A DNA stretch of 46,847 bases from a virus (IMGVR_UViG_2923318301_000001:1-46847), one strand, 5' to 3'; shown: positions 1,054 through 45,839, numbered from the stretch's first letter. Made by a program: numbers and translations. Notes: generated by a model from the sequence alone, not told the origin.

Positions 1054-1121
1054 GTGTAAAGTTCATATATTTCAATTGCTTCAAAGCCGACTCTCGCAAA
1101 GTCGGCTTTCTGCTTTGTCAA

Positions 1122-1508
1122 TCACAGGTATTTGGTTTCAATACCCTTGTAAACAGTTCTAAGCGTGTCTTCAGGCACTTTACCCACCAGCCCACGCAAC
1201 AACGACAACGTTATGTTTACCTTACGCAATGTCTTTACATATCTGGCGTTCGTCCTCCAGATCTTCAATGTTTCGTCTTTATCGCTGTGGTATGCTTCTA
1301 AATTGCGTTCTGTGACGTGATACGCCTCTGTTTTAAACTGCTCAACAGGAATTCCCCAATCGTTGCGTAACAGCGTTAAAACGCGACTACGTTCGTGATT
1401 TCCGGCTTTCCTTAATATGTCGTCAAACTCTTTTGGGGTAAGCTTCCTGCCACTTAGTAGGATATCGCGTATATTCGCGGCGACCTGAGAGCGTGTAAGA
1501 GTGCTCAT
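1122..1508 (-). CDS. Hypothetical protein (island operon)
   Basis: 128-aa ORF co-oriented with flanking genes; 4-bp overlap with the upstream ORF (1505..1508) suggests translational coupling; no recognisable motif. Confidence 0.55.
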   Translation of the reverse strand: MSTLTRSQVAANIRDILLSGRKLTPKEFDDILRKAGNHERSRVLTLLRNDWGIPVEQFKTEAYHVTERNLEAYHSDKDETLKIWRTNARYVKTLRKVNITLSLLRGLVGKVPEDTLRTVYKGIETKYL

Positions 1509-1699
1509 TTTCGTCCCCCCAGAAATCTGTCGGCAAATTGATCAAGGCTGGAGGCAAGCCACACCCGGCGCTTGCGTCCATTGATGGTCTGATTTATATA
1601 GGGAGGAAAGCTTCGGATATATCGCTTTAACTGATAGAAGCGTGACAGACAGACGCCAAGATATTCTGCTGCGTCTTTAGCGGTCAGGTAATTAATCAT
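1505..1699 (-). CDS. Small helix-turn-helix DNA-binding protein (AlpA/excisionase-like fold likely)
   Basis: 64-aa basic ORF; N-terminal LTAKDAAEYLGV resembles HTH_17-type excisionase/regulator proteins. Confidence 0.5.
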   Translation of the reverse strand: MINYLTAKDAAEYLGVCLSRFYQLKRYIRSFPPYINQTINGRKRRVWLASSLDQFADRFLGGRK

Positions 1700-1780
1700 T
1701 TTATTCCCTTACTGTTGTACCAAAATGTAATATGGAGGAGACTTCCTGTCTCCCCAAATTACTCTACAATTTTTGTGCGA

Positions 1781-1972
1781 TTAAATCAGATCTATTACTA
1801 AGTAATCATCGCCAGAGGCAATGCCGATAGCTTTTCCACCGCTGGTGGATTTCACATCATAAACCCAGGTGCTGGTGCTCACCTTTTGTGGCTCTGATCT
1901 AATCAGTGCCGCGAAGGTTTCAAAATCAACATGGGTTACGTTCAGCTTTTGATTGGTAGGTTTCAACTGCAT
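1781..1972 (-). CDS. Hypothetical small protein
   Basis: 63-aa ORF co-oriented in the island operon; no motif; could be spurious. Confidence 0.35.
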   Translation of the reverse strand: MQLKPTNQKLNVTHVDFETFAALIRSEPQKVSTSTWVYDVKSTSGGKAIGIASGDDYLVIDLI

Positions 1973-2020
1973 TCTTAATACCTAATAACGTATTGTTTGT
2001 ATCCTGTTTGTTTCTGTTCT

Positions 2021-2212
2021 TTAGTTACTACGCGATTCGGCTATACGTTGATCGATCCAGTCATCGATCTCGCTTTCAATAAAAGCTATTGCGCGAGCAC
2101 CAATCTTGACTGATTGGGGGAATTGTCCTCGGCTCATCAGAGCATATACCCACGCCTTGCTATAGCCAGTGCGTTTCAAAACCTCAGATAGCCGAATCAG
2201 CGACTTTTTCAT
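2021..2212 (-). CDS. alpA: AlpA-family transcriptional regulator
   Basis: 63-aa protein MKKSLIRLSEVLKRTGYSKAWVYALMSRGQFPQSVKIGARAIAFIESEIDDWI is a textbook AlpA sequence; ATG at 2212 preceded by GAGGT ribosome-binding site. Confidence 0.85.
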   Translation of the reverse strand: MKKSLIRLSEVLKRTGYSKAWVYALMSRGQFPQSVKIGARAIAFIESEIDDWIDQRIAESRSN

Positions 2213-2368
2213 ATCTACCTCGTAATACGTTGCTTGACTATGTGAGATAGTAAATCATTGTTTTTTTAAGTTTTCTGTGAATTTGGAGAAAAAATTTTTG
2301 GGAATAGAATTACCCCAAATTGGGCGTTATTTTTTAGTTCTAACGCACAATTTGGGAACATCCTTCCT

Positions 2369-3124
2369 TTATTTTGGACGCTTTTTGGTTGCTTTTTTCT
2401 TAAATTTGGGGGCGTACTTATCCAAAGCGTTCGTTAGCAATCTCCGAAATGTATCTGGGTGGGTATCGCTGTCTTCATCGTTCCCGAATATTATGTTGTT
2501 TTCTATTACTTGGGCACTAACCCTATTGATACTAAGGTTTCCTCCACTATGGAAATCTTTGCTTGATTCAAATAAGGCAATCGCCATTCCGGCGATCATC
2601 TTTAAAGCCGTATCTTTTCCTCTCCAGTTTTGTTCTCTTTCTACTTTTTTTGACAGTGCTCCAATTTCTGGTTCGTTATCTGGAACATTCATATCCAGTT
2701 CTGGGAAGAAGTTCACAACCTCGGAGCGCTTGAAATAAAACGAATCGTAAGACCCATACCAATCATCCTCATCATCGTGATATAAAAAGTCTTCCCCTTT
2801 CCTAACGTTGAAAGTCCCTTCTTCCCCCGGTATCGGGCTCTCCCTGTATTCATGCCCCATAGCCAGAAGACCTAAAAACTCCACACACTGCTTTTCAAAG
2901 TCGTCATTAGTTGTAAAACCTGATACCCAATCGAACTGATAAAAGCCCAGCCCCCCTAAAGTATCTGGTTTAGCTTTGCTCAATCTGTAGTTACTTAAGA
3001 TAGCGGCAGCGATCATTCTTTCATTTTCATTGTTTAGTCTTGCCAGTTCGCTGATCAGATTACCAAACCAGATTTTATCTTCTGACTCGTTATAAAACGC
3101 ATCTAGTCCTGTCATCTTAGTCAC
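2369..3124 (-). CDS. Hypothetical acidic protein, island cargo gene between int and alpA
   Basis: 251-aa ORF; start is GTG at 3124 or ATG at 3115, either within 8 bp of the int stop (3117..3119); acidic clusters (DDEDDWYGSYDSFYF, NDEDSDTHPD), lysine-rich C-terminal tail; no domain I can name. Confidence 0.65.
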   Translation of the reverse strand: MTKMTGLDAFYNESEDKIWFGNLISELARLNNENERMIAAAILSNYRLSKAKPDTLGGLGFYQFDWVSGFTTNDDFEKQCVEFLGLLAMGHEYRESPIPGEEGTFNVRKGEDFLYHDDEDDWYGSYDSFYFKRSEVVNFFPELDMNVPDNEPEIGALSKKVEREQNWRGKDTALKMIAGMAIALFESSKDFHSGGNLSINRVSAQVIENNIIFGNDEDSDTHPDTFRRLLTNALDKYAPKFKKKATKKRPK

Positions 3125-4403
3125 GGCGTGTTCTCCTTCCGAACTCGTAAGGGCTTATATGTATTTCTCGATTGGCGTCCAGATAATCTGCCCACCATTG
3201 AAGCATTAGTTTGCGCTCTTCTAAGTAATCAGCCTTGTGCTTGTAGGCTCTTTTAACGTCTTTATATTCTTTGTGGCTCATCTGGCGCTCTACTGCGTCC
3301 TCCTGCCACAAACCGGACTCCATCAGGGAACTACAGGCTGTGGCACGGAATCCATGTCCAGTTACGTCCTCTTGCGTGTTATAGCCCATTAAGCGTAATG
3401 CCTTGTTTACCGTGTTTTCACTCATCACGCCTTTGGTGTTTCTTTCATTCGGAAACACAACATCGTAGCTTCCGCTTAGTTCTCTCAACTGCTTTACAAT
3501 AGAAACAGCCTGACGGCTAAGAAGCACGATATGTTCGTCTTTTCCCGTTTTTGTGCCACGGGTGGAAAACCTCACACCATCGATAGGCTCTCTTTTTTTA
3601 GGGATAATCCACTCAGCCCGATCAAGGTCAAACTCTTTCCAACGGGCAAACCTTAACTCGCTTGAACGAACAAATGTCAACATGGTTAGCTCAATGGCAA
3701 GGCGGGTAAGAGGATTACCTTTAAAGCTGCCCAATCGAGTGAAAAAGTCTGGTAAATCTCTGGGATGTAGTGCGGCATGATGCTTAGTTTCATATTGCAT
3801 TAACCGGACATCGAGATCATTCGTGATGATTTCTGTCTTAATGCCGCTCAGACGGGCGCTATGTATGATGTCCTTAACTCGTTGTTTAAGTCGGTTGGCT
3901 GTATCGTGTTTCCCGGCGTCATCTACCTTCTTAAACAAAGGTAAAATTGTCATCGCCTCCAGTTTGCGAATATCCGAAGTGCCAATGTGAGGGAAAATAT
4001 ACATTTCAAGGCTTCTAAGTACGCGTTTTCGTTGGTCTTCGTTCCACATCTGGTGGCTTTCAACCCATTGACGTCCTATTGTCTCAAAAGTGAATGCGCC
4101 TTTTTCTTCTGCTTTTGCTGCTCTTTGCTCTGCTTTGGGATCTATCCCCTTGACTAACAACTTTTTGGCGTTGTCTCGTTTTTCTCTGGCGTCTTGTAAG
4201 CTAATGGTTGGATATACACCAAAAGCAAGTCTGTCTTCTTTCTTATCTGATGGGCGGCGATACTTCATTCGCCAATACTTCGACCCGGTCTGGGATACTT
4301 CAAGATAAAGACCACCACCATCAGACAATTTATAAGTTTTGTCTCGTGGCTTAGCTGCTTTGCACTGACGGTCTGTTAATTTGTTGAGGGTATTTCTGGA
4401 CAT
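3117..4403 (-). CDS. int: Tyrosine site-specific integrase (P4-type)
   Basis: 428 aa; N-terminal arm-binding-like region, C-terminal catalytic region with HGFRAT motif and downstream Tyr; start 164 bp from the att repeat. Confidence 0.9.
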   Translation of the reverse strand: MSRNTLNKLTDRQCKAAKPRDKTYKLSDGGGLYLEVSQTGSKYWRMKYRRPSDKKEDRLAFGVYPTISLQDAREKRDNAKKLLVKGIDPKAEQRAAKAEEKGAFTFETIGRQWVESHQMWNEDQRKRVLRSLEMYIFPHIGTSDIRKLEAMTILPLFKKVDDAGKHDTANRLKQRVKDIIHSARLSGIKTEIITNDLDVRLMQYETKHHAALHPRDLPDFFTRLGSFKGNPLTRLAIELTMLTFVRSSELRFARWKEFDLDRAEWIIPKKREPIDGVRFSTRGTKTGKDEHIVLLSRQAVSIVKQLRELSGSYDVVFPNERNTKGVMSENTVNKALRLMGYNTQEDVTGHGFRATACSSLMESGLWQEDAVERQMSHKEYKDVKRAYKHKADYLEERKLMLQWWADYLDANREIHISPYEFGRRTRRD

Positions 4404-15303: not shown

Positions 15304-16299
15304 TTATCCATGTCGAGCCCACCCCTCTGAGATAAGGTTATGATTTATGCCGAACTGACCTGGGACGCCTGGAACTTGCAAACGCTGTAACATCCCCTCA
15401 GTGCGGAATTGATATGAAAACGTGTCTGGAGCCTCTAAAATGCTTCTGACAGATACGTACGATGCCTGGTTAACTGTTCCTAAGATAGCATTTGGGTCAA
15501 AAGGTTCACCCAGATGCATCTCAGTTTTGAAATCTTCATAAATTTCTTTGATCAGACCGTAAAGGTGCTCATCTGGTTTTTCCACCGTAAGACCTAAATC
15601 GTTTACCGCTTCAATCCTATTTATAGTGTAGTCATGGCTACCAGAATCACTACAAAGGAAACTTACAATTTTCTCAATGCTTTCACTATCAGTGAGTTGG
15701 TGAGACAGTAGTTTTCTTGCGAGCATTTGAATCTGCGCTTTAGCTCGATAGACTTTTCCAAGTACCAAGGGATGAACCTTTTCACTTAATGCAAGGAGGA
15801 TCTGTGCAAGTGAGGCATCATCTTTGATACTCAAATCATGCTTAACTACTTCAAGATAGCCATTGATTTCTTCAACACTGACTGGAAGTTGAAGTGGCTG
15901 CCCATTGATTATGACCGAAGGGTTAAGTGGTGTATTCACACTTGGATCGATTGGCCCTAAGGTTGCCTGCTTGGTCATAACCAAGTTGTTCGCGCCAAGG
16001 CACATTATCGTCCCAGAACTATGGCATTTTGATGGGATTATGATTTCGAGTTCTTTACAAAACTGACGAAGCAGGTTTACAAGGCTCCATGCTGTTAAAG
16101 TGTCGCCGCCTCGCGTATAGAGCACGAGGCTAATTTTTTGAACATCACCTATCACATCAAGATGATTGACGAACAGATCGAATACATCAGCGCTGATTTG
16201 AGCTTCTTGGTTTGGTCTATCACCTGTTACATAGCATAATACTTTTGAATTGCGTGCTTGTTCCAGTTGCGCATACAGGGCTTTACGCTGCTCAAACAT
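15304..16299 (-). CDS. ClpP/S49-fold serine protease-like protein, reverse-oriented insertion between Q and the lysis cassette
   Basis: 331 aa; LVLYTRGGDTLTAWSLVN ... SKCHSSGTIMCLGAN ... ATLGPIDPS parallels the ClpP/SppA pattern (INSPGG ... GxASMG ... MIHQP); opposite strand to the flanking late genes. Confidence 0.7.
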   Translation of the reverse strand: MFEQRKALYAQLEQARNSKVLCYVTGDRPNQEAQISADVFDLFVNHLDVIGDVQKISLVLYTRGGDTLTAWSLVNLLRQFCKELEIIIPSKCHSSGTIMCLGANNLVMTKQATLGPIDPSVNTPLNPSVIINGQPLQLPVSVEEINGYLEVVKHDLSIKDDASLAQILLALSEKVHPLVLGKVYRAKAQIQMLARKLLSHQLTDSESIEKIVSFLCSDSGSHDYTINRIEAVNDLGLTVEKPDEHLYGLIKEIYEDFKTEMHLGEPFDPNAILGTVNQASYVSVRSILEAPDTFSYQFRTEGMLQRLQVPGVPGQFGINHNLISEGWARHG

Positions 16300-18049: not shown

Positions 18050-18343
18050 TTATTGTGAGCAATATACCCGTGCTTCCAGCGGAGTATAAATGCCAAAAGT
18101 GATGAAACCGAGCAATCCATTTACGAATGTTTGCTGGGTTTCTGTTTTAACCACATTTTCTGCACCACCACAAATTTTTGCTGCATCGACAGTTTTCTTC
18201 TGCCCAATTCCCGAAACGAAGAAATGATGGGTGATGGTTTCCTTTGGTGTTACTGCTGTCGGTTTGTTTCCAACAGTAAACGTCTGTTGAGCACATCCTG
18301 TAATAAGCATTGCCAGCGCGGCAGAAAACAACATTTTTTTCAT
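18050..18343 (-). CDS. bor: Bor lipoprotein (serum-resistance moron)
   Basis: 97 aa from MKKML; lipobox LITGC; closely matches lambda Bor; opposite orientation to the late operon. Confidence 0.85.
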   Translation of the reverse strand: MKKMLFSAALAMLITGCAQQTFTVGNKPTAVTPKETITHHFFVSGIGQKKTVDAAKICGGAENVVKTETQQTFVNGLLGFITFGIYTPLEARVYCSQ

Positions 18344-34399: not shown

Positions 34400-37300
34400 A
34401 TGGGTAAAGGTAGCAGTAAGGGGCATACCCCGCGCGAAGCGAAGGACAACCTGAAGTCCACGCAGCTGCTGAGTGTGATCGATGCCATCAGCGAAGGGCC
34501 GGTTGAAGGTCCGGTGGATGGATTAAAAAGCGTGCTGCTGAACAGTACGCCGGTGCTGGACACTGAGGGGAATACCAACATCTCCGGTGTCACGGTGGTG
34601 TTCCGTGCCGGTGAGCAGGAGCAGACACCGCCGGAGGGGTTTGAATCCTCCGGCTCCGAGACGGTGCTGGGTACGGAAGTGAAATATGACACGCCGATCA
34701 CCCGCACCATTACGTCTGCAAACATCGACCGTCTGCGCTTTACCTTCGGCGTGCAGGCACTGGTGGAAACCACCTCAAAGGGGGACCGGAATCCGTCGGA
34801 AGTCCGCCTGCTGGTTCAGATCCAGCGTAATGGTGGCTGGGTGACGGAAAAAGACATCACCATTAAGGGCAAAACCACCTCGCAGTATCTGGCCTCGGTG
34901 GTGGTGGGTAACCTGCCGCCGCGCCCGTTCAATATACGGATGCGCAGGATGACGCCGGACAGCACCACAGACCAGCTGCAGAACAAAACGCTCTGGTCGT
35001 CATACACCGAAATCATCGATGTGAAACAGTGCTACCCGAACACGGCACTGGTCGGCGTGCAGGTGGATTCGGAGCAGTTCGGCAGCCAGCAGGTGAGCCG
35101 TAATTATCATCTGCGCGGGCGCATTCTGCAGGTGCCGTCGAACTATAACCCGCAGACGCGGCAATACAGCGGTATCTGGGACGGAACGTTTAAGCCAGCA
35201 TACAGCAACAACATGGCCTGGTGTCTGTGGGATATGCTGACCCATCCGCGCTACGGCATGGGGAAACGTCTTGGTGCGGCGGATGTGGACAAATGGGCGC
35301 TGTATGTCATCGGCCAGCATTGCGATCAGTCGGTGCCGGACGGTTTTGGCGGCACAGAGCCGCGCATCACCTGTAATGCGTACCTGACCACACAGCGCAA
35401 GGCGTGGGATGTGCTCAGTGATTTCTGCTCTGCGATGCGCTGTATGCCGGTATGGAACGGGCAGACGCTGACGTTCGTGCAGGACCGACCGTCGGATAAG
35501 GTGTGGACCTATAACCGCAGTAATGTGGTGATGCCGGATGATGGTGCGCCGTTCCGCTACAGCTTCAGCGCCCTGAAGGACCGCCATAATGCCGTTGAGG
35601 TGAACTGGATTGACCCGAATAACGGCTGGGAGACGGCGACAGAGCTTGTGGAGGACACGCAGGCCATTGCCCGTTACGGTCGTAACGTCACGAAGATGGA
35701 TGCTTTTGGCTGTACCAGCCGGGGGCAGGCACACCGCGCCGGGCTGTGGCTGATTAAAACAGAACTGCTGGAAACGCAGACCGTGGACTTCAGCGTGGGT
35801 GCCGAAGGGCTTCGCCATGTACCGGGCGATGTCATTGAAATCTGCGATGATGACTATGCCGGTATCCGCACCGGCGGGCGCGTGCTGGCGGTAAACAGCC
35901 AGACCCGGACGCTGACGCTCGACCGTGAAATCACGCTGCCATCTTCCGGCACCACGCTGATAAGCCTGGTTGACGGGCAGGGGAGTCCGGTCAGCGTGGA
36001 GGTTCAGTCCGTCACCGACGGCGTGAAGGTGAAAGTGAGCCGTGTTCCTGACGGCGTTGCTGAATACAGCGTATGGGGGCTGAAGCTGTCGACGTTGCGC
36101 CAGCGCCTGTTCCGCTGCGTGAGTATCCGTGAGAACGACGACGGCACGTATGCCATCACCGCCGTGCAGCATGTACCGGAAAAAGAGGCCATCGTGGATA
36201 ACGGGGCGCACTTTGACGGCGACCAGAGCGGCACGGTAAATGGTGTCACGCCGCCAGCGGTGCAGCACCTGACCGCAGAAGTCACCGCAGACAGCGGGGA
36301 ATACCAGGTGCTGGCGCGCTGGGACACGCCGAAGGTGGTGAAGGGCGTGAGCTTCCTGCTTCGCCTGACCGTGGCAGCGGATGACGGCCGTGAGCGGCTG
36401 GTCAGCACGGCCCGGACGACGGAAACCACTTACCGCTTCACACAACTGGCTCTGGGGAACTACAGGCTGACAGTCCGGGCAGTAAATGCGTGGGGGCAGC
36501 AGGGCGATCCGGCGTCGGTATCGTTCCGGATTGCCGCACCGGCAGCGCCGTCGCGGATTGAGCTGACGCCGGGCTATTTTCAGATAACCGCCACGCCGCA
36601 TCTTGCGGTTTATGACCCGACGGTACAGTTTGAGTTCTGGTTCTCGGAAAAACGGATTGCGGATATCAGGCAGGTTGAAACCAGCGCGCGTTATCTTGGT
36701 ACGGCACTGTACTGGATAGCCGCCAGTATCAATATCAAACCGGGCCATGATTATTATTTTTACGTTCGCAGTGTGAACACCGTTGGCAAATCGGCATTCG
36801 TGGAGGCTGTCGGTCGGGCGAGCGATGATGCGGAAGGTTACCTGGATTTTTTCAAAGGCAAGATAACCGAATCCCATCTCGGTAAAGAGCTGCTGGAAAA
36901 AGTTGATCTGACGGAGGATAACGCCAGCAGACTGGATGAGTTTTCGAAAGAGTGGAAGGACGCTAACGATAAATGGAATGCCATGTGGGGCGTCAAAATT
37001 GAGCAGACCAAAGACGGCAAACATTATGTCGCGGGTATTGGCCTCAGCATGGAGGACACGGAGGAAGGCAAGCTGAGCCAGTTTCTGGTTGCCGCTAACC
37101 GTATCGCGTTTATTGACCCGGCAAACGGGAATGAAACGCCGATGTTTGTGGCGCAGGGCAACCAGATATTCATGAACGACGTGTTCCTGAAGCGCCTGAC
37201 AGCCCCCACCATTACCAGCGGTGGCAGTCCTCCGGTATTTTCCCTGACATCAGACGGAAAGCTGACCGCTAAAAATGCGGATATCAGTGGTAGTGTGAAT

Positions 37301-37813
37301 GCGAACTCAGGAACGCTCAACAATGTCACGATTAACCAGAACTGTACGATTAAGGGCATGCTGGAGGCGACCCAGGTCAGAGGGGATTTCGTTAAAGCTG
37401 TATCAAAAGCCTTCCCGAAAAAAGTCGGTACGTGGGGTAACACGGAAACACCAAACGGTACGGTTACAGTCACCATCAGCGATGATCATAACTTTGACCG
37501 CCAGATTATTATTCCGCCCATTATTTTTAACGGTATAGCGTATGACGATCCGGGGAGCGGAAATAACCCAGGAGGCACGCGATACACGGGTTATGGTTTT
37601 GAAGTTCGCAAAAACGGCGTATTAATCGCATCCAGAGAAACTAAAGGGGCCATTCCCGGTAGTTACAGTGCAGTTATTGATATGCCGAGTGGCAGGGGAA
37701 GCGTCACTCTGGAGTTTAAGATTTTCCAGAAAGGCAATCAGGGGGCAGGCAATATCACCGACTGTACGGTGATTGTGACCAAAAAAGCCGCTTCCGGCAT
37801 CAGTATTCGTTGA
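34400..37813 (+). CDS. J: Central tail fibre / host specificity protein J
   Basis: 1137 aa; collinear with lambda J in length and recognisable blocks. Confidence 0.95.
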
Positions 37814-37883: not shown

Positions 37884-38483
37884 ATGCGTAAAGTTTGTGC
37901 AGCAATTTTGTCCGCAGCCATTTGTCTGGCCGTATCCGGTGCGCCTGCATGGGCGTCTGAACATCAGTCCACGCTGAGCGCGGGGTATCTTCATGCCTCG
38001 ACGAACGTCCCCGGCAGTGATGATCTGAACGGGATTAACGTGAAATACCGTTATGAGTTTACGGACACACTGGGGCTGGTGACGTCATTCAGCTATGCAG
38101 GAGACAAGAATCGCCAGCTGACCCGTTACAGCGATACCCGCTGGCATGAAGATTCCGTTCGTAACCGCTGGTTCAGCGTAATGGCGGGGCCGTCTGTGCG
38201 CGTAAATGAATGGTTCAGCGCGTATGCGATGGCGGGTGTAGCTTACAGCCGTGTGTCGACTTTCTCCGGGGATTATCTTCGCGTAACTGACAACAAGGGG
38301 AAAAAGCACGATGTGCTGACCGGAAGTGATGACGGTCGCCACAGCAACACGTCTCTGGCGTGGGGGGCTGGCGTGCAGTTTAACCCGACCGAATCCGTGG
38401 CCATTGATATTACTTATGAAGGCTCCGGCAGTGGTGACTGGCGCACTGACGGTTTCATCGTGGGTGTCGGTTATAAATTCTGA
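37884..38483 (+). CDS. lom: Outer membrane protein Lom (Ail/Lom family)
   Basis: 199 aa; signal peptide, beta-barrel pattern, C-terminal GYKF; lambda Lom-like. Confidence 0.9.
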   Translation: MRKVCAAILSAAICLAVSGAPAWASEHQSTLSAGYLHASTNVPGSDDLNGINVKYRYEFTDTLGLVTSFSYAGDKNRQLTRYSDTRWHEDSVRNRWFSVMAGPSVRVNEWFSAYAMAGVAYSRVSTFSGDYLRVTDNKGKKHDVLTGSDDGRHSNTSLAWGAGVQFNPTESVAIDITYEGSGSGDWRTDGFIVGVGYKF

Positions 38484-38536: not shown

Positions 38537-38547
38537 GTGGGGTGAAT

Positions 38548-41500
38548 ATGGCAGTAAAGATTTCAGGTGTACTGAAAGACGGCGCAGGTAAACCGGTACA
38601 GAACTGCACAATCCAGCTGAAAGCAAAACGTAACAGCACCACGGTGGTGGTGAACACGGTGGCCTCAGAAAATCCGGATGAAGCCGGGCGTTACAGCATG
38701 GACGTTGAGTACGGTCAGTACAGCGTTATTCTGTTGGTGGAAGGCTTCCCGCCATCGCATGCCGGGACCATCACCGTGTATGAAGACTCACAACCGGGTA
38801 CGCTGAATGATTTTCTCGGTGCCATGACGGAGGATGATGCCCGTCCGGAGGCACTGCGCCGTTTTGAGCTGATGGTGGAAGAAGTGGCGCGTAACGCGTC
38901 CGCGGTGGCACAGAACACGGCAGAGGCTGCTATTTCTGCCTCTCAGGCCGAAGAGTTCGCGAGCAATGCTTCTGAATATGCGCTGAATAAGTTCACGTTC
39001 TATAAAACGCCGAGCGATCCGGACGGTACAATTGCAGGCCTTGCTGCTACTACCAGCGGGCAGTCTTTCCGTGTAGCGGAAGGCCCGGGAGCAACAGCGG
39101 CATTCAAAACCTACGAGAACCAGGATGGCGTGGCTATACTACAGGCTTCTCAGCCAGGCACAGCTGCTATAACAGGGACAATCCGCGAATTTCCCACGCT
39201 GGAGGCGGCACAGGCTGATGCAGACGCTGGCAATATTCTTTCTGGTTCAAAATGCTGGGTAACCAGTGCTATAAATACCTCGCTGGCTGACGAGTATGTA
39301 AATACATCCGGGGTTATGACTGCAACCGGGAGAACAATTATTTCCCAGTACAGCCTATCTTCGTCTATATCAAGAGAAGCAACTAGAAGAAAAAATGGTG
39401 ATTATCAGGATTTGATTGAATTCAAATCTCTTGATGATACAGCACTACCATTACCGGAAAATTCAGTATTAGAATTTTTGTCTCTGGCAACCACTACGGA
39501 TGTAAACACAAACTTCTATCGCCTTGTTTTTTCTTCGCTGGGTTCTGAGGTTGCGTCACTGGTTTTTCCTGGGACGAACACCCAGTATTCTGATGGTAAA
39601 TTCTGGTCAGCGTATCGCCTGTTCCGATTTCAGGATTTGAAGTATGTTTCCATTCTGGAAACGACCAGTAGTGTAGTTCGGGTTCGCTATGACCTGCCGG
39701 CTGGGTTTGGTGTTCCGGTAGCAGGCTCAAACTATATTGCACTTGATATTACAGGCAAGTTTTATCCGGCGCAGGCAGGCTCAGTTAACTCCGTCACAAG
39801 GAAGTCAATATCCGGGACAGCAATTGCCAACGCCATTCAGTTCGTGGTTACCATCGCTGAACTTACGGCTGCTGGTTATACGGCGTCGACCGTTGTTGAT
39901 TACATCAACTCAATAGCGCCAGATTGCCTCTTTGCGGCATATGCGGCATATGATACGACGATTGCCCAGACAGGGTTTGAAGATTTTTTCAGGATTCAGT
40001 TACCTGCTGGTGATTATACCGTTAGCCGTGATGGCTTTGCGCCTTCAGGACTGGCAGTGTTACCTGCCGGTGCGTATTCGGTATGGCGTAAAAAGCCTGT
40101 AAGGCAGGTATTTGTTGGAAACTTCCTGAGAAATGTTGCTGATGTTAAAAATCTGCTGTCGGCAGAATATAAAAACTATCCCGTTGAGCTTAAGGTGTCG
40201 TTTGGTCCCGGCGAAGTGCCAGACTCCGATGCGCTGAAGGTGATGGACGCTGACGGCAACGTGTTTGACTGCCAGTTTGCGGATAACGTTTATCCCAATC
40301 CACGCCTGAAATCGAACACCGGATACCATGCCGACGGCTCCCTGGCATCAGGGTCTGTGTTCATCACCGATACCCTGGCATCAGGACAGCAGAAATATTA
40401 CGAACTCAGGGCATACAATCGTCGCCGCCAGGACCTGGCCTCAGAGTCCTTCCCGCAGCTCGTGAGGGTGGCTGACGGGTTCACCGTTACCGTGGGCGGG
40501 TATGTGTATTTTTTCCAGCGCCAGAACAGCCTGGGGCTGACCAGTATCACCGACCCGGCAGGACAGACGCACAGTTTTGCGCATTCCTGTTACTGTACCG
40601 GGATTGTCTCCGGCGGATCCTCAAGTAACAAGATGGTGCTCGGTGCATCACTGCGCATGGTTAATACCGGGCCGGTCTTTACTGAGCTGGAGCTGACCGT
40701 CAGAAACCGGACCATCGGAACACTGGCTGAAGGGGCGTTACAGTCCACAGTACGCTACCGGATTTTCAAAAATGGCAAGGTGCTTATCCGGGTCATGACC
40801 ACGGCTACGCAAGATATTCCGGCTGGAGTATTATTTGGTGCATATTCCCGTCTGAACCTGAATGATGGTGCATATACCTTTGATGCCGCTAGAGCACTGA
40901 CGTACTGGACGGATTCAGTCACCGGCAAGCGATTTACGGCCACGACGGTCTTTGCTAATGGGGATATCCACCGAGATGGCCCTGCTTATGGGCCAACGCG
41001 CCCGATACGGGCAACGGCGCTGCAACCCACAGGCACAACAACTCGGCTGGACGCGGGATGGCTTTTCGTTGACCTGAATGACGATTCATTCCTGAACTGG
41101 CCTGTGCCAAAAAACTGGACGTGGACACATGAGACATGGATTGACTGCGACAACACCATCACCAGTTCCACCTCAGAGGTTAATGCACTGCTGGTAAGTC
41201 AGGCTAACAACCGCCCGGTAGGGTTCATGGGTGATTGCAGTTATGCAGGTGTTCTGCGGCTGGACATGCTGGAGAAAATCGCCTGTCACGTCAGGGGATC
41301 CGTTGAGTGGTGGAAAAGCACTGACGCTACTGTTTATGGTGGCGGACCCGATGTGAAAACGCAGTTCTATTGCCACATGGCAGAGATTTTTCTGTTAGAA
41401 AAGTATGGCATCAGCACGCTGAACACAGTGTATACGAATTTTAAATCGTACATGAGGGGATTTGGCGGCATAACTAATCCAGGTATTATGTTCACTGATG

Positions 41501-42282
41501 GATGGTGGGGGTTGCAGTTCCAGTCGCGTCTGAGTATTCCGTGCTATGAGTGGCTCTACAAAATGGCGGTGAAGGCCGGAGATACAGCCAAACAAACCGA
41601 GCTGAAGGCGGGGATTAAATCCCTCGCGGATGCCGTCATGGTGTCATATAACACCTATGGTGGCGTGGCTCTGGTGGGGACAGCCACAAACTCAGGAAAC
41701 AGCAACTCTAACGCGACAGCCATGCGCGTGCTGGCGCTGGCGATTTATATGGGGCTGGATACCGGCGGGACGTACCTTGCTGCATTCAATGCGCTGGAGA
41801 CCTTCATCACGAACTCAGCGACATTCATGAAAGCGGAAAACATTATTCTCGATGGCCCGTCGGATTCCACGCTGAAGAGCATGTACCTGCCGTACATGGT
41901 TTACGCCACTAATAACTACCTGCTGGCCTGCAAGCTGCTTAACCGGACACCAAAGTTTGACCTGGTGAATTTTATCCTGACAGCGTCAAACAGCGCGGGA
42001 GGATTCAGTGAGGTGGATTACTGCATCTCTGAAAGCCGACGTGGTGGCGCGAACACTATCGCGTTTGCGTTACTGCCGCTGTTTCAGTCCGCCAGGCCGT
42101 CAGCAATGATTGCCGCAAAATCGCTGTTCGGAATTTTTGAGACGCAGTACGGGCCGAAACCGGGACTACCAAAGCGCTTCTTTGATTTTGACGGCAGCAG
42201 TGCGGCTGGCAGCACGATGTATGACCCGTGCTTTGTGGCGTCAACGCTTGCCGACCTTTGGCTGTCATATGGCTACAATTAA
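38548..42282 (+). CDS. Side tail fibre / tailspike-like protein with lambda Stf N-terminal anchor and divergent large C-terminal region
   Basis: 1246 aa; first ~120 aa near-identical to my recollection of lambda Stf (MAVKISGVLKDGAGKPVQNCTIQLKAKRNSTTVVVNTV...), remainder unrelated to the Stf repeats. Confidence 0.8.
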   Translation: MAVKISGVLKDGAGKPVQNCTIQLKAKRNSTTVVVNTVASENPDEAGRYSMDVEYGQYSVILLVEGFPPSHAGTITVYEDSQPGTLNDFLGAMTEDDARPEALRRFELMVEEVARNASAVAQNTAEAAISASQAEEFASNASEYALNKFTFYKTPSDPDGTIAGLAATTSGQSFRVAEGPGATAAFKTYENQDGVAILQASQPGTAAITGTIREFPTLEAAQADADAGNILSGSKCWVTSAINTSLADEYVNTSGVMTATGRTIISQYSLSSSISREATRRKNGDYQDLIEFKSLDDTALPLPENSVLEFLSLATTTDVNTNFYRLVFSSLGSEVASLVFPGTNTQYSDGKFWSAYRLFRFQDLKYVSILETTSSVVRVRYDLPAGFGVPVAGSNYIALDITGKFYPAQAGSVNSVTRKSISGTAIANAIQFVVTIAELTAAGYTASTVVDYINSIAPDCLFAAYAAYDTTIAQTGFEDFFRIQLPAGDYTVSRDGFAPSGLAVLPAGAYSVWRKKPVRQVFVGNFLRNVADVKNLLSAEYKNYPVELKVSFGPGEVPDSDALKVMDADGNVFDCQFADNVYPNPRLKSNTGYHADGSLASGSVFITDTLASGQQKYYELRAYNRRRQDLASESFPQLVRVADGFTVTVGGYVYFFQRQNSLGLTSITDPAGQTHSFAHSCYCTGIVSGGSSSNKMVLGASLRMVNTGPVFTELELTVRNRTIGTLAEGALQSTVRYRIFKNGKVLIRVMTTATQDIPAGVLFGAYSRLNLNDGAYTFDAARALTYWTDSVTGKRFTATTVFANGDIHRDGPAYGPTRPIRATALQPTGTTTRLDAGWLFVDLNDDSFLNWPVPKNWTWTHETWIDCDNTITSSTSEVNALLVSQANNRPVGFMGDCSYAGVLRLDMLEKIACHVRGSVEWWKSTDATVYGGGPDVKTQFYCHMAEIFLLEKYGISTLNTVYTNFKSYMRGFGGITNPGIMFTDGWWGLQFQSRLSIPCYEWLYKMAVKAGDTAKQTELKAGIKSLADAVMVSYNTYGGVALVGTATNSGNSNSNATAMRVLALAIYMGLDTGGTYLAAFNALETFITNSATFMKAENIILDGPSDSTLKSMYLPYMVYATNNYLLACKLLNRTPKFDLVNFILTASNSAGGFSEVDYCISESRRGGANTIAFALLPLFQSARPSAMIAAKSLFGIFETQYGPKPGLPKRFFDFDGSSAAGSTMYDPCFVASTLADLWLSYGYN

Positions 42283-42296
42283 TGGAAAATAGAAAT

Positions 42297-42324
42297 CAAA
42301 AGGCCTAAATAATACGGCCTTTTG
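42297..42324. terminator. Hairpin after the Stf-like gene (possible terminator)
   Basis: 9-bp stem caaaaggcc / ggccttttg with 10-nt loop; A-tract before and T-tract within/after. Confidence 0.4.
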
Positions 42325-42779
42325 ATTTGCGGGGGTATATATGGCGCTTAAGCTATTAGCCAATAATAACGCAAAGAGTGTTCTCGCTGCGGGTATTAGC
42401 GCGTCCGCTACCGTTATTACCGTGGGTACCGGAGCGGGGGCTTTATTCCCTTCCCCTGTATCTGGACAGAGCTATTTCAAATTAACGATAACCGACGCGG
42501 CCACGAAAACAATATCTGAAATTATGCACGTCACGTCTGTATCCGGTGACGTGATGACAGTAATTCGTGGTCAGGAAGGAACTACGGCACGCGTATGGTC
42601 AACGAATGACATTGTCGCGAATTTAATGACCGCCGGATCATTGTTATCTTTCCTGCAGATCAGCAATAACCTGTCAGAAATTAAAGATGCCGGTGAGGAT
42701 GCGATAAATGAAGCCCGTTATAACCTCGGAATATCTGATTCCTCTGGTTTTGTCGGGCGTTCACTTGGCGCTCCAAAAG

Positions 42780-42788
42780 CTTTCTATG
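42780..42788. repeat. IS903 target-site duplication (left copy)
   Basis: ctttctatg, identical to 43846..43854. Confidence 0.85.
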
Positions 42789-43845
42789 GGCTTTGTTGAA
42801 TAAATCGAACTTTTGCTGAGTTGAAGGATCAGATCACGCATCTTCCCGACAACGCAGACCGTTCCGTGGCAAAGCAAAAGTTCAAAATCACCAACTGGCC
42901 CACCTACAATAAAGCCCTCATCAACCGTGGCTCCATAACTTTCTGGCTGGATGATGAAGCTATTCAGGCCTGGTATGAGTCAGCAACACCTTCTTCACGA
43001 GGCAGACCTCAGCGCTATTCTGACCTTGCCATCACCACCGTTCTGGTCATTAAACGCGTGTTCAGGTTGACCCTGCGGGCTGCACAGGGTTTTATTGATT
43101 CCATTTTTTCTCTGATGAACGTTCCGCTACGCTGCCCGGATTACAGCTGTGTCAGCAGGCGGGCAAAGTCGGTTAATGTCAGTTTCAAAACGCCCACCCG
43201 GGGTGAAATCGCACACCTGGTAATTGATTCCACCGGGCTGAAGGTCTTCGGTGAAGGCGAGTGGAAAGTCAAAAAGCATGGCCAGGAACGCCGCCGTATC
43301 TGGCGTAAGCTGCATCTCGCCGTTGACAGTAAAACACATGAAATCATCTGCGCTGACCTGTCGCTGAACAACGTTACGGACTCAGAGGCCTTCCCCGGGT
43401 TAATCCGGCAAACCCACCGGAAAATCAGGTCAGCCGCCGCCGATGGCGCTTACGATACCCGGCTCTGTCACGATGAACTGCGGCGTAAGAAAATCAGCGC
43501 GCTTATCCCTCCCCGAAAAGGTGCGGGTTACTGGCCCGGTGAATATGCAGACCGTAACCGTGCAGTGGCTAATCAGCGAATGACCGGGAGTAATGCGCGG
43601 TGGAAATGGACAACAGATTACAACCGTCGCTCGATAGCGGAAACGGCGATGTACCGGGTAAAACAGCTGTTCGGGGGTTCACTGACGCTGCGTGACTACG
43701 ATGGTCAGGTTGCGGAGGCTATGGCCCTGGTACGAGCGCTGAACAAAATGACGAAAGCAGGTATGCCTGAAAGCGTGCGTATTGCCTGAAAACACAACCC
43801 GCTACGGGGGAGACTTACCCGAAATCTGATTTATTCAACAAAGCC
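42789..43845 (+). mobile_element. IS903 (IS5 family), intact
   Basis: 1057 bp; 18-bp terminal inverted repeats ggctttgttgaataaatc (42789..42806 and reverse complement at 43828..43845); single transposase ORF; 9-bp direct target duplication. Confidence 0.85.
42866..43789 (+). CDS. IS903 transposase (DDE)
   Basis: 307 aa from GTG at 42866 (track ORF starts at TTG 42821); IS5-family transposase features. Confidence 0.8.
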   Translation: MAKQKFKITNWPTYNKALINRGSITFWLDDEAIQAWYESATPSSRGRPQRYSDLAITTVLVIKRVFRLTLRAAQGFIDSIFSLMNVPLRCPDYSCVSRRAKSVNVSFKTPTRGEIAHLVIDSTGLKVFGEGEWKVKKHGQERRRIWRKLHLAVDSKTHEIICADLSLNNVTDSEAFPGLIRQTHRKIRSAAADGAYDTRLCHDELRRKKISALIPPRKGAGYWPGEYADRNRAVANQRMTGSNARWKWTTDYNRRSIAETAMYRVKQLFGGSLTLRDYDGQVAEAMALVRALNKMTKAGMPESVRIA

Positions 43846-43854
43846 CTTTCTATG
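43846..43854. repeat. IS903 target-site duplication (right copy)
   Basis: ctttctatg, identical to 42780..42788. Confidence 0.85.
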
Positions 43855-44442
43855 CAAACGGAACCTATACGCGATCTCCTCTGGCCCGTTATGCAAAAGT
43901 AACGTTGACCGGCGCCGGTGGTGGCGGTGGCGGCTGCCAGGCCTCCAACAATACAGAAACCTTCTCCGGTGCCGGCGGCGGTGCGGGTGCGACCATTATC
44001 GTATGGGTTGACCTGTCTGCTGCCAGTTCTTACGCGATTACTGTCGGCAAGGGTGGTAAGGGCGGAGTTGGCGCAGTAAGTGGTGCGGATGGTGGTGCTA
44101 CCTCGTTTGCCAGCCTGTTCTCAGCTCCTGGCGGGAAAGGCGGCGTGAAGTCAGGCGTGTCCAATACCGCCGGCGGCGCCGGAGGTACGGCGGCGACCGG
44201 AGATATCAGGATCAACGGTGGTACCGGCTCAGATGGACAGACAGGCTCAAGCCTTCTGACGGGCAACGGCGGGGCGTCGTATTTTGGCGGCGGTGGCCGG
44301 GCGGGTTCTCAGGCCGGTATTGCTGGCGCAGCTCCCGGATCCGGTGGTGGTGGCGCGTATGACCTTGGGTTTACCGGTACGGCATTTACCGGTGGTGATG
44401 GTGCTACTGGCATGGCGATCGTGGAAGAATTCGCGTAATGGC

Positions 44443-45603
44443 TTACACTCCTGCACGACCATCGATGTAATCAGCCCACCACTGCATCATTTCTCTGCGC
44501 TTATCGAGATACTGAGCATGATTGTAAATTCCACGCACAGATCCGCCGTTGGCATGTGCCAGTTGCACTTCAATAGCATCAGCGGGCCATTCGTTCTCGT
44601 TCATAATCGTGCTGAATTCATGCCTGAATCCGTGACCGCTTTCCAGCCCCTCATAGCCGATTTGTTTGATCACAAGCAATACCGCGTTCTCGCAGATTGG
44701 TTTCTTCTTATCGTTGCGCCCGGCAAAAACAAACTCTGAGACTGGTTTGGTGATTGAGCTTAGCGTAGTGAGAAGTTCAACCACCTGGTCTGACATAGGA
44801 ACCACATGAATTTTGCGTCCCTTCATCACACTGGCGTCGATGGTGATAATCCTGTTTTCAAAATCGACGTTCTTCCATAGCATGGAACGAAGCTCTTTCG
44901 TTCTTAGGGCTGTGTAGCGTAAAACTTTGGTCGCAATGAGCGATACGATACTTCCTGAAAATGTTGCCAGTGCTTTATTGAATGCCGGGATCTGGTCTGC
45001 AGGAAGAAACGGGAAGTTCTTCTTGCGGTATCCCTTCATGGCGTCAGCAAGGTCAGGTGCTGGGTTATATTTAGCCCTTCCGGTGACAATAGCGTAACGG
45101 AAAACCTCTCCGCATCTTCTGCGGGCTTTGTTGGCTCGCTCCATTGCACCGCGATCTTCGAATCTTCGGATTACTTCCAGCAGTTGCATCGGCTCAATAT
45201 CCTGAATCTCAAGACCGCCGATGATGGGTAAAATGTCGTCATCAAACATTTTGGCAAGTTCAGTTGCATAGCCTACTGACCAGACTTGCTTCTTGTGCTC
45301 GTACCATTCCTTGTAAATCGCACTAAAGGAATTGTTGTTAGACGAAGCCTTTTTCGCCTTTACCGGATCGATGCCAGCCGAGATGTCTTTCCTCGCAGTC
45401 CATGCCTTATCCCTTGCCTCCTGCAAAGTCATAAGTGGATATTTTCCGACGGTCAGGATTTTCTCCTTACCGTCAATCTTGTAGCGAAGCTGCCATACCT
45501 TTTTCCCGGATACAGGAACATAAAGGTACAGGCCATTACCATCGAGAAGGCGGTATGGTTTTTCTTTCGGCTTTGCTGCTTCAATCTGCTTAACGGTGAG
45601 CAT
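44443..45603 (-). CDS. intS: Prophage integrase IntS (tyrosine recombinase)
   Basis: 386 aa from MLTVKQIEAAKPKEKPYRLLDG (track start at 45639 adds 12 codons); matches my recollection of E. coli IntS; adjacent to argW. Confidence 0.9.
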   Translation of the reverse strand: MLTVKQIEAAKPKEKPYRLLDGNGLYLYVPVSGKKVWQLRYKIDGKEKILTVGKYPLMTLQEARDKAWTARKDISAGIDPVKAKKASSNNNSFSAIYKEWYEHKKQVWSVGYATELAKMFDDDILPIIGGLEIQDIEPMQLLEVIRRFEDRGAMERANKARRRCGEVFRYAIVTGRAKYNPAPDLADAMKGYRKKNFPFLPADQIPAFNKALATFSGSIVSLIATKVLRYTALRTKELRSMLWKNVDFENRIITIDASVMKGRKIHVVPMSDQVVELLTTLSSITKPVSEFVFAGRNDKKKPICENAVLLVIKQIGYEGLESGHGFRHEFSTIMNENEWPADAIEVQLAHANGGSVRGIYNHAQYLDKRREMMQWWADYIDGRAGV

Positions 45604-45763: not shown

Positions 45764-45779
45764 ATGGTGTCCCCTGCAG
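45764..45779. repeat. att core at the tRNA (attL)
   Basis: atggtgtcccctgcag, identical to 4567..4582; covers the tRNA 3' acceptor end. Confidence 0.75.
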
Positions 45780-45839
45780 GAATCGAACCTGCAATTAGCC
45801 CTTAGGAGGGGCTCGTTATATCCATTTAACTAAGAGGAC
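45765..45839 (-). tRNA. argW: tRNA-Arg (anticodon CCU)
   Basis: 75-nt reverse-strand sequence with 3' CCA, T-arm GGTTCGATTCC and anticodon loop CTCCTAA; matches my recollection of E. coli argW. Confidence 0.9.

What the first reader, a model, noticed from the sequence alone, without database searches (positions are those of the whole stretch)
38548..44438. Two-gene receptor-binding module: Stf-anchor chimera plus a second fibre, with no tfa-like chaperone gene
The 1246-aa protein keeps the lambda Stf N-terminal anchor but carries a long unrelated C-terminal body that could be a tailspike or enzymatic domain. It is followed, after a hairpin, by a second fibre gene with a glycine-rich C-terminus that runs directly into the intS stop. 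Domain swapping downstream of a conserved anchor is the usual route to new host range. I could not assign the C-terminal region to a fold from sequence alone.
Basis: partly seen in the sequence, partly recalled or inferred. Interest (0 to 1): 0.4.

Follow-up and report, generated by a model that had tools for sequence, protein, structure and literature searches.

The report
Enzyme-bearing lambda side fibre, broken partner
A lambda-like E. coli prophage carries an intact but never-annotated side tail fibre whose lambda-type anchor is fused to a sugar-degrading-enzyme-like body, followed by a short fibre gene that an insertion sequence has split; this is ordinary modular host-range swapping, but the enzyme family is uncharacterised.

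Summary
The long ORF is real and intact (38548-42282; 1244 aa from the ATG, 1246 from an upstream GTG). Residues 1-135 are the lambda Stf N-terminal collar domain. The rest matches no Pfam or NCBIfam family and no solved structure by sequence.

A confident AlphaFold2 model shows neither a Stf-type rod nor a beta-helix. It has small beta domains, a mutarotase-like beta-supersandwich and a C-terminal (alpha/alpha)6 barrel. The best full-length match is the PL26 exo-rhamnogalacturonan lyase. I read it as a surface-polysaccharide depolymerase of the rare alpha/alpha-toroid class.

A 1057-bp IS903B with a 9-bp target duplication sits at 42789-43845. Removing it restores a 343-aa gene identical to an intact allele elsewhere. 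That protein is a structural short fibre, not a chaperone. No tfa gene is present.

The cassette from about residue 207 of the long protein to the second fibre's stop is collinear with a contractile-tail (Baseplate_J) contig, where the large protein carries the second fibre's anchor type instead of StfN. The second fibre was therefore probably imported as a passenger. Verdict: new member of a known kind, moderate-to-low interest.

The parts
38548..42282 (+). RBP1: intact side-tail-fibre gene, 1244 aa from the ATG (ORF listing starts it at GTG 38542, giving 1246 aa). RefSeq annotates only the first 445 nt, as a pseudogene.
38548..38952 (+). RBP1 aa 1-135: lambda Stf N-terminal anchor (collar domain plus linker)
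   Evidence: PF08400 E 1.2e-71. 88/94 identical to 9e7m_Ta. Role of StfN in Ur-lambda: PMC12617516.
38953..39372 (+). RBP1 aa 136-275: 'module B', a conserved adaptor shared at 60-80% identity with many Klebsiella/E. coli prophage receptor-binding proteins that carry other bodies (SGNH, beta-helix, SASA) and other anchors. It is the only long stretch that lambda-type and contractile-tail-type proteins share; DNA-level collinearity with L014 starts inside it, at 39167.
39373..40125 (+). RBP1 aa 276-526: predicted beta-rich domains, family-specific, function not assigned
   Evidence: pLDDT mostly 80-90
40126..41154 (+). RBP1 aa 527-869: predicted mutarotase-like beta-supersandwich; carries about 23 family-invariant residues
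41173..42273 (+). RBP1 aa 876-1242: predicted (alpha/alpha)6 barrel (six-hairpin glycosidase-like), with the invariant E1162-S-R1164-R1165-G motif and invariant Y1004, N1053, D1071, Y1076, Y1116, Y1124
42293..42328 (+). Intergenic hairpin (13-bp stem), followed by a GGGGG ribosome-binding-like run upstream of the fibre2 ATG; conserved in the contractile-tail-type cassette
42341..42788 (+). fibre2, 5' part (aa 1-149 plus the first base of codon 150): N-terminal anchor domain ('anchor2') and helical linker
   Evidence: (8jov_1 tail fibre N-terminus, E 1.2e-7)
42789..43845 (+). IS903B (IS5 family), 1057 bp, 18-bp terminal inverted repeats; transposase at 42821-43789; 9-bp target duplication CTTTCTATG at 42780-42788 and 43846-43854
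43855..44438 (+). fibre2, 3' part (rest of codon 150 to aa 343 plus stop): glycine-rich C-terminal domain
   Evidence: PF21722 E 8.5e-14. Model pLDDT >90. Foldseek to Bxb1 tail tip 9d93_Q and Pam3 fibre 7ypx.
44443..45603 (-). intS integrase, converging on fibre2; in other genomes fibre2 and intS form the right end of contractile-tail prophages at argW
45765..45839 (-). tRNA-Arg (CCT), argW, the prophage attachment site

Best explanation
The region is the receptor-binding end of a mosaic lambda-like (KplE1/CPS-53-family) prophage at argW.

RBP1 is a side tail fibre. Its first ~91 residues form the lambda StfN collar domain. By analogy with Ur-lambda, that domain clamps trimers onto the tail at the gpV-gpM junction (inferred from 94% identity). 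After a conserved adaptor (module B), RBP1 carries a carbohydrate-active-enzyme-like body instead of a gp37-like rod and tip: a beta-supersandwich plus an (alpha/alpha)6 barrel, PL26-like in overall layout (predicted).

The most likely job of that body is to bind and cleave a surface polysaccharide (capsule, O-antigen or colanic acid) so that the central fibre gpJ can reach its outer-membrane receptor (inferred; lyase versus hydrolase is undecided). Such a body has no gp37-type tip, which would explain why no Tfa chaperone gene is present.

fibre2 is a short structural fibre with an N-terminal anchor and a glycine-rich knob. It belongs natively to Baseplate_J-type contractile-tail prophages. 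It came into this lambda-type phage together with the RBP1 body and intS, by a recombination inside RBP1 at or within module B. On this tail it probably has no docking site. It is in any case inactivated here by a recent IS903B insertion.
For: - StfN.
- Conservation: 40 invariant columns across 42 homologues down to 28% identity, concentrated in the supersandwich and barrel. They include E1162, R1164, R1165, D1071 and several Tyr and Asn.
- Distribution: homologues are tail genes of Klebsiella and E. coli phages and prophages.
- Circumstantial activity: halo-forming Klebsiella phage SAKp02 has a 38%-identical homologue as its last tail gene before the lysis cassette.
- Precedent: alpha/alpha-toroid depolymerase domains are a recognised rare class in Klebsiella prophages.
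- Cassette and mosaic.
- Native context of fibre2: all 8 enterobacterial species loci have the fibre2-type anchor 1-2.5 kb downstream of a Baseplate_J gene. E. coli WI1 has baseplate ... SGNH protein ... fibre2-intS-argW, and L029 and L030 are similar.
- fibre2 is structural: its fold matches fibre chains resolved in virions, and its anchor also heads large receptor-binding proteins.
- IS.
- No tfa.
Against: - No enzymatic activity or substrate is known for any member of the body family. The link to carbohydrate-active enzymes rests on a predicted monomer structure only, at 7-14% identity, with global TM 0.23-0.27 to PL26.
- Catalytic residues could not be mapped onto a characterised homologue.
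- The fold could serve binding only.
- Oligomeric state and the way three ~950-aa lobes hang from a trimeric stalk are not modelled.
- fibre2 is kept intact next to this RBP1 in at least 14 other E. coli genomes at two or more loci. That is also compatible with a function on the lambda-type virion.
Confidence: 0.65

Rival explanations
1. Branched side fibre. fibre2 is a working secondary receptor-binding protein on this lambda-type tail. Its N-terminal anchor docks onto RBP1, for example on module B. The cassette would then be a self-contained two-receptor module that works on any tail, as in the anchor-branch models for Klebsiella phages. The IS insertion would be a real loss of host range in this strain.
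For: - RBP1 and fibre2 are adjacent and co-inherited, with a conserved intergenic hairpin, on two different tail types.
- The imported segment includes most of module B: DNA collinearity with L014 begins at 39167, about aa 207.
- Another module-B protein (SASA type) also has a small fibre2-anchor protein downstream.
- Intact fibre2 persists beside RBP1 in at least 14 E. coli genomes.
Against: - RBP1 occurs without fibre2 in at least 8 lambdoid prophages, where homology ends 16 nt after its stop codon.
- Module-B proteins occur without any fibre2-type gene within 6 kb downstream.
- fibre2 is three times commoner than this RBP1 in E. coli (72 versus 26 genomes) and sits in Baseplate_J contexts.
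- In L014, RBP1 itself carries the same anchor type as fibre2. That fits a shared baseplate site better than docking on RBP1.
- No complex prediction was possible with these tools.
Confidence: 0.25
2. The RBP1 body is a non-catalytic adhesin. It would be an enzyme-derived fold retained only to bind a glycan or a protein receptor, and it does not depolymerise anything.
For: - No catalytic residues could be matched to a characterised enzyme.
- There is no sequence link to any CAZy family with a solved structure.
Against: - Charged and aromatic residues in both the supersandwich and the barrel are strictly invariant across homologues down to 28% identity.
- The family is found mainly in Klebsiella phages, where capsule depolymerases are the rule.
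- A phage with a homologue forms halo plaques.
Confidence: 0.2
3. fibre2 is a tail-fibre assembly factor (chaperone) for RBP1, functionally replacing Tfa.
For: The best PHROG hit of its C-terminal part (phrog_863) is labelled 'tail fiber assembly'. It also sits where tfa sits in lambda.
Against: - Its fold matches fibre chains built into virion structures: Bxb1 9d93_Q, E 1.6e-8, and Pam3 7ypx, E 3.3e-8.
- Its N-terminus is a virion anchor that also heads large receptor-binding proteins, and it resembles the N-terminus of the 8jov tail fibre.
- The same glycine-rich domain ends P2-type tail fibres.
- RBP1 is kept intact without it.
- There is no similarity to lambda Tfa.
Confidence: 0.04

Closest known systems
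Lambda (Ur-lambda) side tail fibre Stf, PDB 9e7m/9mgh; Pfam PF08400
   Same: The N-terminal ~94 residues are 94% identical (collar domain that binds the gpV-gpM junction). The gene sits in the same position after J and lom.
   Different: Everything after about aa 135. There is no gp37-like coiled rod or tip, no OmpC-type receptor-binding domain and no downstream tfa.
PL26 exo-rhamnogalacturonan lyase PcRGLX (Penicillium chrysogenum), PDB 5xq3
   Different: Only 13% identity and no sequence- or profile-level hit. Global TM is only 0.23-0.27. PcRGLX is a secreted fungal enzyme, not a virion protein. Catalytic residues were not compared.
Six-hairpin (alpha/alpha)6 enzymes: GH88 unsaturated glucuronyl hydrolase (1vd5), GH105 YteR (1nc5), cellobiose 2-epimerase (4z4j), GH76, GH8, GH15
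   Different: Only 7-12% identity. These are single-domain cytoplasmic or secreted enzymes. Which chemistry applies here, if any, is unknown.
Alpha/alpha-toroid class of phage and prophage capsule depolymerases (DepoScope, PMC11326577; Klebsiella lysogen survey, PMC12491483)
   Same: A receptor-binding protein that carries an alpha/alpha-toroid polysaccharide-degrading fold. The class is rare: 29 of the depolymerase domains found in Klebsiella prophages, under 1%.
   Different: I could not check whether this exact family is among those 29. Here the fold is mounted on a lambda StfN anchor in E. coli.
1355-aa tail protein of Klebsiella phage SAKp02 / vB_KpnS_MAG26fr (Casjensviridae)
   Same: 38% identity over 96% of the body. 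It is the last tail gene before the lysis cassette, and the phage forms halo plaques.
   Different: Different N-terminal part and a different tail type. The depolymerase activity of that protein was inferred from plaques, not shown with purified protein.
Glycine-rich fibre proteins: cyanophage Pam3 fibre (7ypx, 7yfw), mycobacteriophage Bxb1 tail-tip chain Q (9d93); Pfam PF21722. Ralstonia phage tail fibre 8jov for the N-terminus.
   Same: The fibre2 C-terminal domain matches at Foldseek E 1.6e-8 to 3.3e-8 with 25-27% identity. fibre2 aa 7-105 resemble the N-terminus of 8jov_1; that chain matches Ralstonia podophage-size genomes.
   Different: fibre2 is interrupted by an IS here. Its docking site on any tail is unknown.
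IS903B (IS5 family)
   Same: 1057 bp, 18-bp terminal inverted repeats, 9-bp target duplication, DDE transposase. NF033579 E 6e-107. RefSeq names it IS903B in the near-identical record.
   Different: Nothing notable.

Membership tests
Lambda Stf-type side tail fibre | N-terminal tail-attachment (collar) domain, PF08400 | tested here: met
   E 1.2e-71 over aa 3-136; 88/94 identical to 9e7m_Ta
Lambda Stf-type side tail fibre | gp37-like fibrous rod and receptor-binding tip along the C-terminal part | tested here: not met
   No fibre-repeat, collar or tip Pfam family for aa 137-1244 even at E<=10. The predicted structure is globular enzyme-like domains.
Lambda Stf-type side tail fibre | Downstream Tfa-type assembly chaperone gene | tested here: not met
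   tblastn with lambda Tfa (recalled sequence): best E 1.5 in the window, positive control found in L002. ORFs between 42283 and 44442 are only the fibre2 pieces and the transposase.
Phage depolymerase-type receptor-binding protein (tailspike sensu lato) | Virion anchor joined to a polysaccharide-degrading fold | tested here: met
   StfN anchor plus a predicted beta-supersandwich and (alpha/alpha)6 barrel. Prediction only.
Phage depolymerase-type receptor-binding protein (tailspike sensu lato) | Demonstrated cleavage of a host surface polysaccharide | not testable with these tools
   Only circumstantial evidence: halo plaques of SAKp02, which carries a 38% homologue.
CAZy PL26 | Sequence membership in the family | tested here: not met
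   13% identity in the structural alignment. Family profiles A1 and A3 find no PDB sequence, 5xq3 included, at E<=10.
CAZy PL26 | Overall multi-domain architecture | tested here: inconclusive
CAZy PL26 | Catalytic residues and beta-elimination chemistry | not tested
   No paper on PcRGLX was found in the searchable library.
Six-hairpin (alpha/alpha)6 glycosidase-like superfamily | (alpha/alpha)6 barrel fold | tested here: met
Glycine-rich fibre domain family (PF21722 Gly_rich_2) | HMM match above the gathering score, and a fold like the fibre chains seen in virions | tested here: met
   52.5 bits against a cut-off of 24.3 for the restored protein. Foldseek to 9d93_Q and 7ypx at E ~1e-8.
Tfa / tail fibre assembly chaperones (for fibre2) | Similarity to Tfa-type chaperones | tested here: not met
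   No Pfam chaperone family hit and no Tfa similarity. Only a PHROG label, 'tail fiber assembly', for phrog_863.
IS903 group of the IS5 family | About 1057 bp, 18-bp terminal inverted repeats, 9-bp target duplication, DDE transposase | tested here: met
   Precise excision in silico restores an allele identical to the intact one.

The most novel reading that the evidence does not exclude
The RBP1 body founds a new carbohydrate-active enzyme family. It has no sequence relatives among characterised families, has a PL26-like architecture and is represented by only ~97 clusters among 1.84 billion representative proteins. It would cleave an E. coli or Klebsiella capsule or O-antigen linkage. In addition, the RBP1-fibre2 cassette would be a tail-agnostic two-receptor module in which fibre2 docks on RBP1's module B, giving a lambda-type siphophage a branched, enzyme-bearing side fibre imported wholesale from a contractile-tail phage.
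Probability: 0.15. Interest if true: 0.6.

Novelty: new member of a known kind. Interest (0 to 1): 0.35.

Why it matters
- **Annotation gap.** A 3.3-kb intact gene is invisible in RefSeq. In all 26 complete E. coli genomes that carry it, PGAP calls only a 445-nt 'pseudogene' and leaves the rest blank. Host-range and depolymerase surveys based on annotation will therefore miss it.
- **Enzyme discovery.** The body belongs to a small family with no Pfam model and no characterised member. It is a candidate source of new capsule- or O-antigen-degrading enzymes for Klebsiella and E. coli typing or therapy.
- **Phage evolution.** The locus is a clean example of a receptor-binding cassette moving between contractile and non-contractile tails by swapping only the anchor, and dragging along a partner fibre that may no longer fit.

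None of this changes current concepts of phage host-range evolution.

Tried and rejected
- **Sequence families for aa 137-1244:** Pfam (also in four pieces at E<=10), NCBIfam, PDB phmmer and two PDB profile searches (A1, A3) gave nothing. PHROGs gave only an unknown-function family, phrog_20877.
- **Exhaustive HMMER search:** 97 clusters in all. Ten of the remote ones have no Pfam hit, and the few with names are 'hypothetical'. No bridge to a characterised family was found.
- **Beta-helix / pectate-lyase idea:** rejected from the model and both fold searches.
- **'Body aligns along its length to Stf fibres':** rejected.
- **fibre2 as chaperone:** rejected.
- **Literature:** searches for '8JOV' and 'PcRGLX' gave nothing usable. 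The PL26 search found only reviews.
- **The search for related loci:** failed with alignment A2 (no conserved stretch) and found nothing with full-length P0121. It worked with an anchor-only alignment.
- **Not done:** checking whether SAKp02 has other depolymerase candidates.


Full report
**Anatomy**

On the + strand the window reads gpJ (34400-37813), lom (37884-38483), a terminator-like hairpin, and then a long ORF at 38542/38548-42282. After a 13-bp-stem hairpin (42293-42328; -17.8 kcal/mol, z -3.4) comes a 152-aa ORF (42341-42799). It is followed by an IS5-family transposase ORF (42821-43789) and a glycine-rich ORF that ends at 44438. intS converges from the other strand, with its stop at 44443. 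tRNA-Arg (argW) and yfdC follow.

The whole window is 99.9% identical to E. coli strain 961. There it is a KplE1/CPS-53-family lambdoid prophage, with torI/xis at the far end and intS next to argW.

The long ORF and its anchor are confirmed. PF08400 matches aa 3-136 at E 1.2e-71. 88 of 94 residues are identical to the Ur-lambda Stf collar-domain chain 9e7m_Ta. In Ur-lambda, Stf residues 1-91 form the collar that binds gpV and gpM and holds four trimeric side fibres (PMC12617516). The protein is 1244 aa from the ATG at 38548, which is the start used by lambda and RefSeq.

The hairpin, the glycine-rich end abutting intS and the absence of tfa are also confirmed. tblastn with lambda Tfa (sequence recalled from memory) finds nothing better than E 1.5 in the window. 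The same query finds the annotated tfa remnants in control locus L002.

- A 1057-bp element occupies 42789-43845. It has 18-bp terminal inverted repeats and a 9-bp target duplication, CTTTCTATG.
- Its transposase matches NF033579 at E 6e-107, and RefSeq calls it IS903B.
- Removing the IS and one duplicate copy restores a 1032-nt, 343-aa ORF. That ORF is identical, base for base, to the intact 'glycine-rich domain-containing protein' gene of E. coli ECSD228. The insertion is therefore recent.

**The body of RBP1**

Residues 137-1244 match no Pfam or NCBIfam model, even in pieces at E<=10, and no PDB sequence. PHROGs place them in phrog_20877, function unknown.

The protein has three layers:
- aa 1-135 are StfN.
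- aa 136-275 ('module B') are 60-80% identical to a stretch found in very many Klebsiella and E. coli prophage receptor-binding proteins. Those proteins carry SGNH, beta-helix, SASA or other bodies and have different N-termini.
- From about aa 275-320 onward, the body is shared with about 40 protein clusters. All are labelled hypothetical or carry no source name, apart from one mislabel, and they come from Klebsiella, Raoultella, Serratia and E. coli.

An exhaustive HMMER scan of 1.84 billion representative proteins found only 97 clusters.

I predicted the structure with AlphaFold2 on a 42-sequence alignment. The model has mean pLDDT 82.7 and pTM 0.67, and the two C-terminal domains are mostly above 85. 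It shows small beta domains, a large beta-sandwich region (aa ~527-869) and an all-helical barrel (aa ~876-1242).
- Foldseek against the PDB ranks the PL26 exo-rhamnogalacturonan lyase PcRGLX first: E 7.6e-11, ~970 aligned columns, 13% identity, but TM only 0.23-0.27. Beta-sandwich domains of Golgi mannosidase II and LacZ come next.

The body is therefore neither a Stf-type rod nor a beta-helix tailspike. It has the supersandwich-plus-(alpha/alpha)6 layout typical of glycoside hydrolases, phosphorylases and some lyases.

Forty alignment columns are invariant across homologues down to 28% identity, and they sit in these two domains. Examples are D567, R586, E713, E715, D806, R809, D810, Y1004, N1053, D1071, Y1076, Y1116, Y1124 and E1162-S-R1164-R1165-G. 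That pattern is what a conserved active site would give. I could not map these residues in 3D.

Two pieces of context support a depolymerase role. First, alpha/alpha-toroid domains are a recognised but rare class of phage depolymerase: 29 domains, under 1% of those found in Klebsiella prophages (PMC12491483; PMC11326577). Second, Klebsiella phage SAKp02 forms halo plaques (PMC11280391), and its last tail gene before the lysis cassette is a 38%-identical homologue. No member of the family has been assayed.

**fibre2**

The restored 343-aa protein matches PF21722 (Gly_rich_2) at 52.5 bits. Its model is confident for aa ~145-343 (pLDDT above 90) and poor for the N-terminal ~110 residues. The poor N-terminal confidence may reflect a domain that needs to oligomerise in order to fold.

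Foldseek matches the glycine-rich domain to fibre chains resolved in virions: mycobacteriophage Bxb1 tail tip 9d93_Q at E 1.6e-8 and cyanophage Pam3 fibre 7ypx at E 3.3e-8. It matches the ALK/LTK glycine-rich domain only weakly.

Residues 7-105 resemble the N-terminus of tail-fibre chain 8jov_1 (E 1.2e-7), a chain that matches Ralstonia phages. The same N-terminal domain heads small proteins with other C-termini (Collar, gp53-like), and the same glycine-rich domain ends P2-type fibres. fibre2 is therefore a modular structural fibre. It is not a chaperone, despite the 'tail fiber assembly' label on phrog_863.

**The two genes as a cassette, and where it came from**

Protein P0004 (1223 aa) is 73% identical to RBP1 from about aa 124 to the end, but it starts with a fibre2-type anchor that is 48% identical to fibre2 aa 1-105. 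Its contig, L014, encodes a Baseplate_J-type contractile tail. There the gene is followed, across the same hairpin, by a fibre2 that is 97% identical to ours. Window 39167-44441 is collinear with L014.

The fibre2-type anchor belongs to that tail type:
- In all eight enterobacterial species-representative genomes that have it, it lies 1-2.5 kb downstream of a homologous Baseplate_J gene.
- fibre2 itself occurs in 72 of 5426 complete E. coli genomes, against 26 for the RBP1 body.
- In the three contexts I opened, it is the last gene of a baseplate-bearing prophage or phage-plasmid. One of them ends fibre2-intS-argW exactly as this window does.

Conversely, RBP1 occurs in at least eight other lambdoid prophages without fibre2. 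There homology stops 16 nt after its stop codon and tfa remnants follow.

The simplest history is one recombination inside the RBP1 gene, at or within the shared module B. It joined a lambda-type tail module (StfN) to the right end of a contractile-tail prophage (body, fibre2, intS). RBP1 is fitted to its new tail by its StfN anchor. fibre2 keeps an anchor for a baseplate that this phage does not have.

**Mechanism proposed**

Shown by the tools:
- the gene structures;
- the identity of the anchor;
- the IS insertion;
- the shared cassette;
- the absence of tfa.

Predicted from the AlphaFold2 model:
- the fold of the body.

Inferred:
- RBP1 trimers sit on the lambda collar site.
- RBP1 binds and cleaves a surface polysaccharide, helping gpJ reach its receptor.
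- No Tfa is needed because there is no gp37-like tip.
- fibre2 is a passenger on this tail, and is in any case knocked out here.

The main rival (0.25) is that fibre2 docks on RBP1, for example on module B, making a branched fibre. Co-inheritance and the persistence of intact fibre2 beside RBP1 in at least 14 genomes favour it. The independent distributions of the two genes, and the shared anchor type in L014, argue against it. A binding-only body (0.2) cannot be excluded.

**Novelty**

Modular anchor swapping and enzyme-bearing receptor-binding proteins are textbook, and IS disruption is trivial. What is new is modest:
- an uncharacterised family with no characterised sequence relatives and a PL26-like layout, mounted on a lambda Stf anchor;
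- a systematic RefSeq blind spot, because PGAP annotates only a 445-nt pseudogene and leaves 3.3 kb blank in all 26 genomes;
- a well-documented transfer of a two-gene cassette between tail types.

I rate it a new member of a known kind, interest 0.35.

Noticed in passing
window 38993-42282 (and the same stretch in all 26 E. coli genomes): RefSeq/PGAP annotates only the first 445 nt of the intact 3.7-kb gene, as a 'pseudogene, missing C-terminus', and leaves about 3.3 kb with no feature. This is a systematic annotation gap for this protein family.
   Followed up: yes
window 1-4403: Left of torI, the prophage's excisionase end, lies what looks like a second integrative element. It has a tyrosine recombinase (3117-4403, -), a rolling-circle replication-associated protein (1-1053, -), and MerR and HTH regulators.
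   Followed up: no
window 18050-18343 (-) and 15304-16299 (-): Two likely moron genes sit inside the prophage: iss (increased serum survival lipoprotein) after the lysis genes, and an SDH-family Clp-fold serine proteinase between the Q antiterminator and the holin.
   Followed up: no
L007 5484-12270 (GCA_037052385.1): A 65%-identical body homologue without StfN (P0005, 1113 aa) lies next to a resolvase/invertase gene (PF00239). It is on the opposite strand to a gpJ-like gene and an SGNH tail protein. This could be an invertible host-range switch.
   Followed up: no
L028 5154-9001, L029, L030, L009 (other E. coli and Klebsiella prophages): In the contractile-tail prophages, three conserved small genes (about 250, 79 and 105 aa, all hypothetical) sit between the large SGNH/SASA receptor-binding protein and the fibre2-type gene. 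They are absent from the RBP1-fibre2 cassette studied here.
   Followed up: no
L029 (NZ_CP141750.1, 47.9-kb circular 'plasmid'): A fibre2 copy (96% identical) lies on a 48-kb circular record that encodes baseplate, integrase, Kil, CIII, SSB and Rad52-like genes. It looks like a phage-plasmid or an excised prophage assembled as a plasmid.
   Followed up: no
RBP1 aa ~199-530 versus P0004: Identity to the contractile-tail-type homologue is almost 100% across the N-proximal beta domains but only about 60-80% in the supersandwich and barrel. This suggests a further, more recent exchange inside the body.
   Followed up: partly
window 43833-44438: RefSeq calls the 3' fragment of the broken fibre2 as a separate gene that starts inside the right end of IS903B (43833). 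Whether IS-borne signals express a truncated glycine-rich protein was not examined.
   Followed up: no
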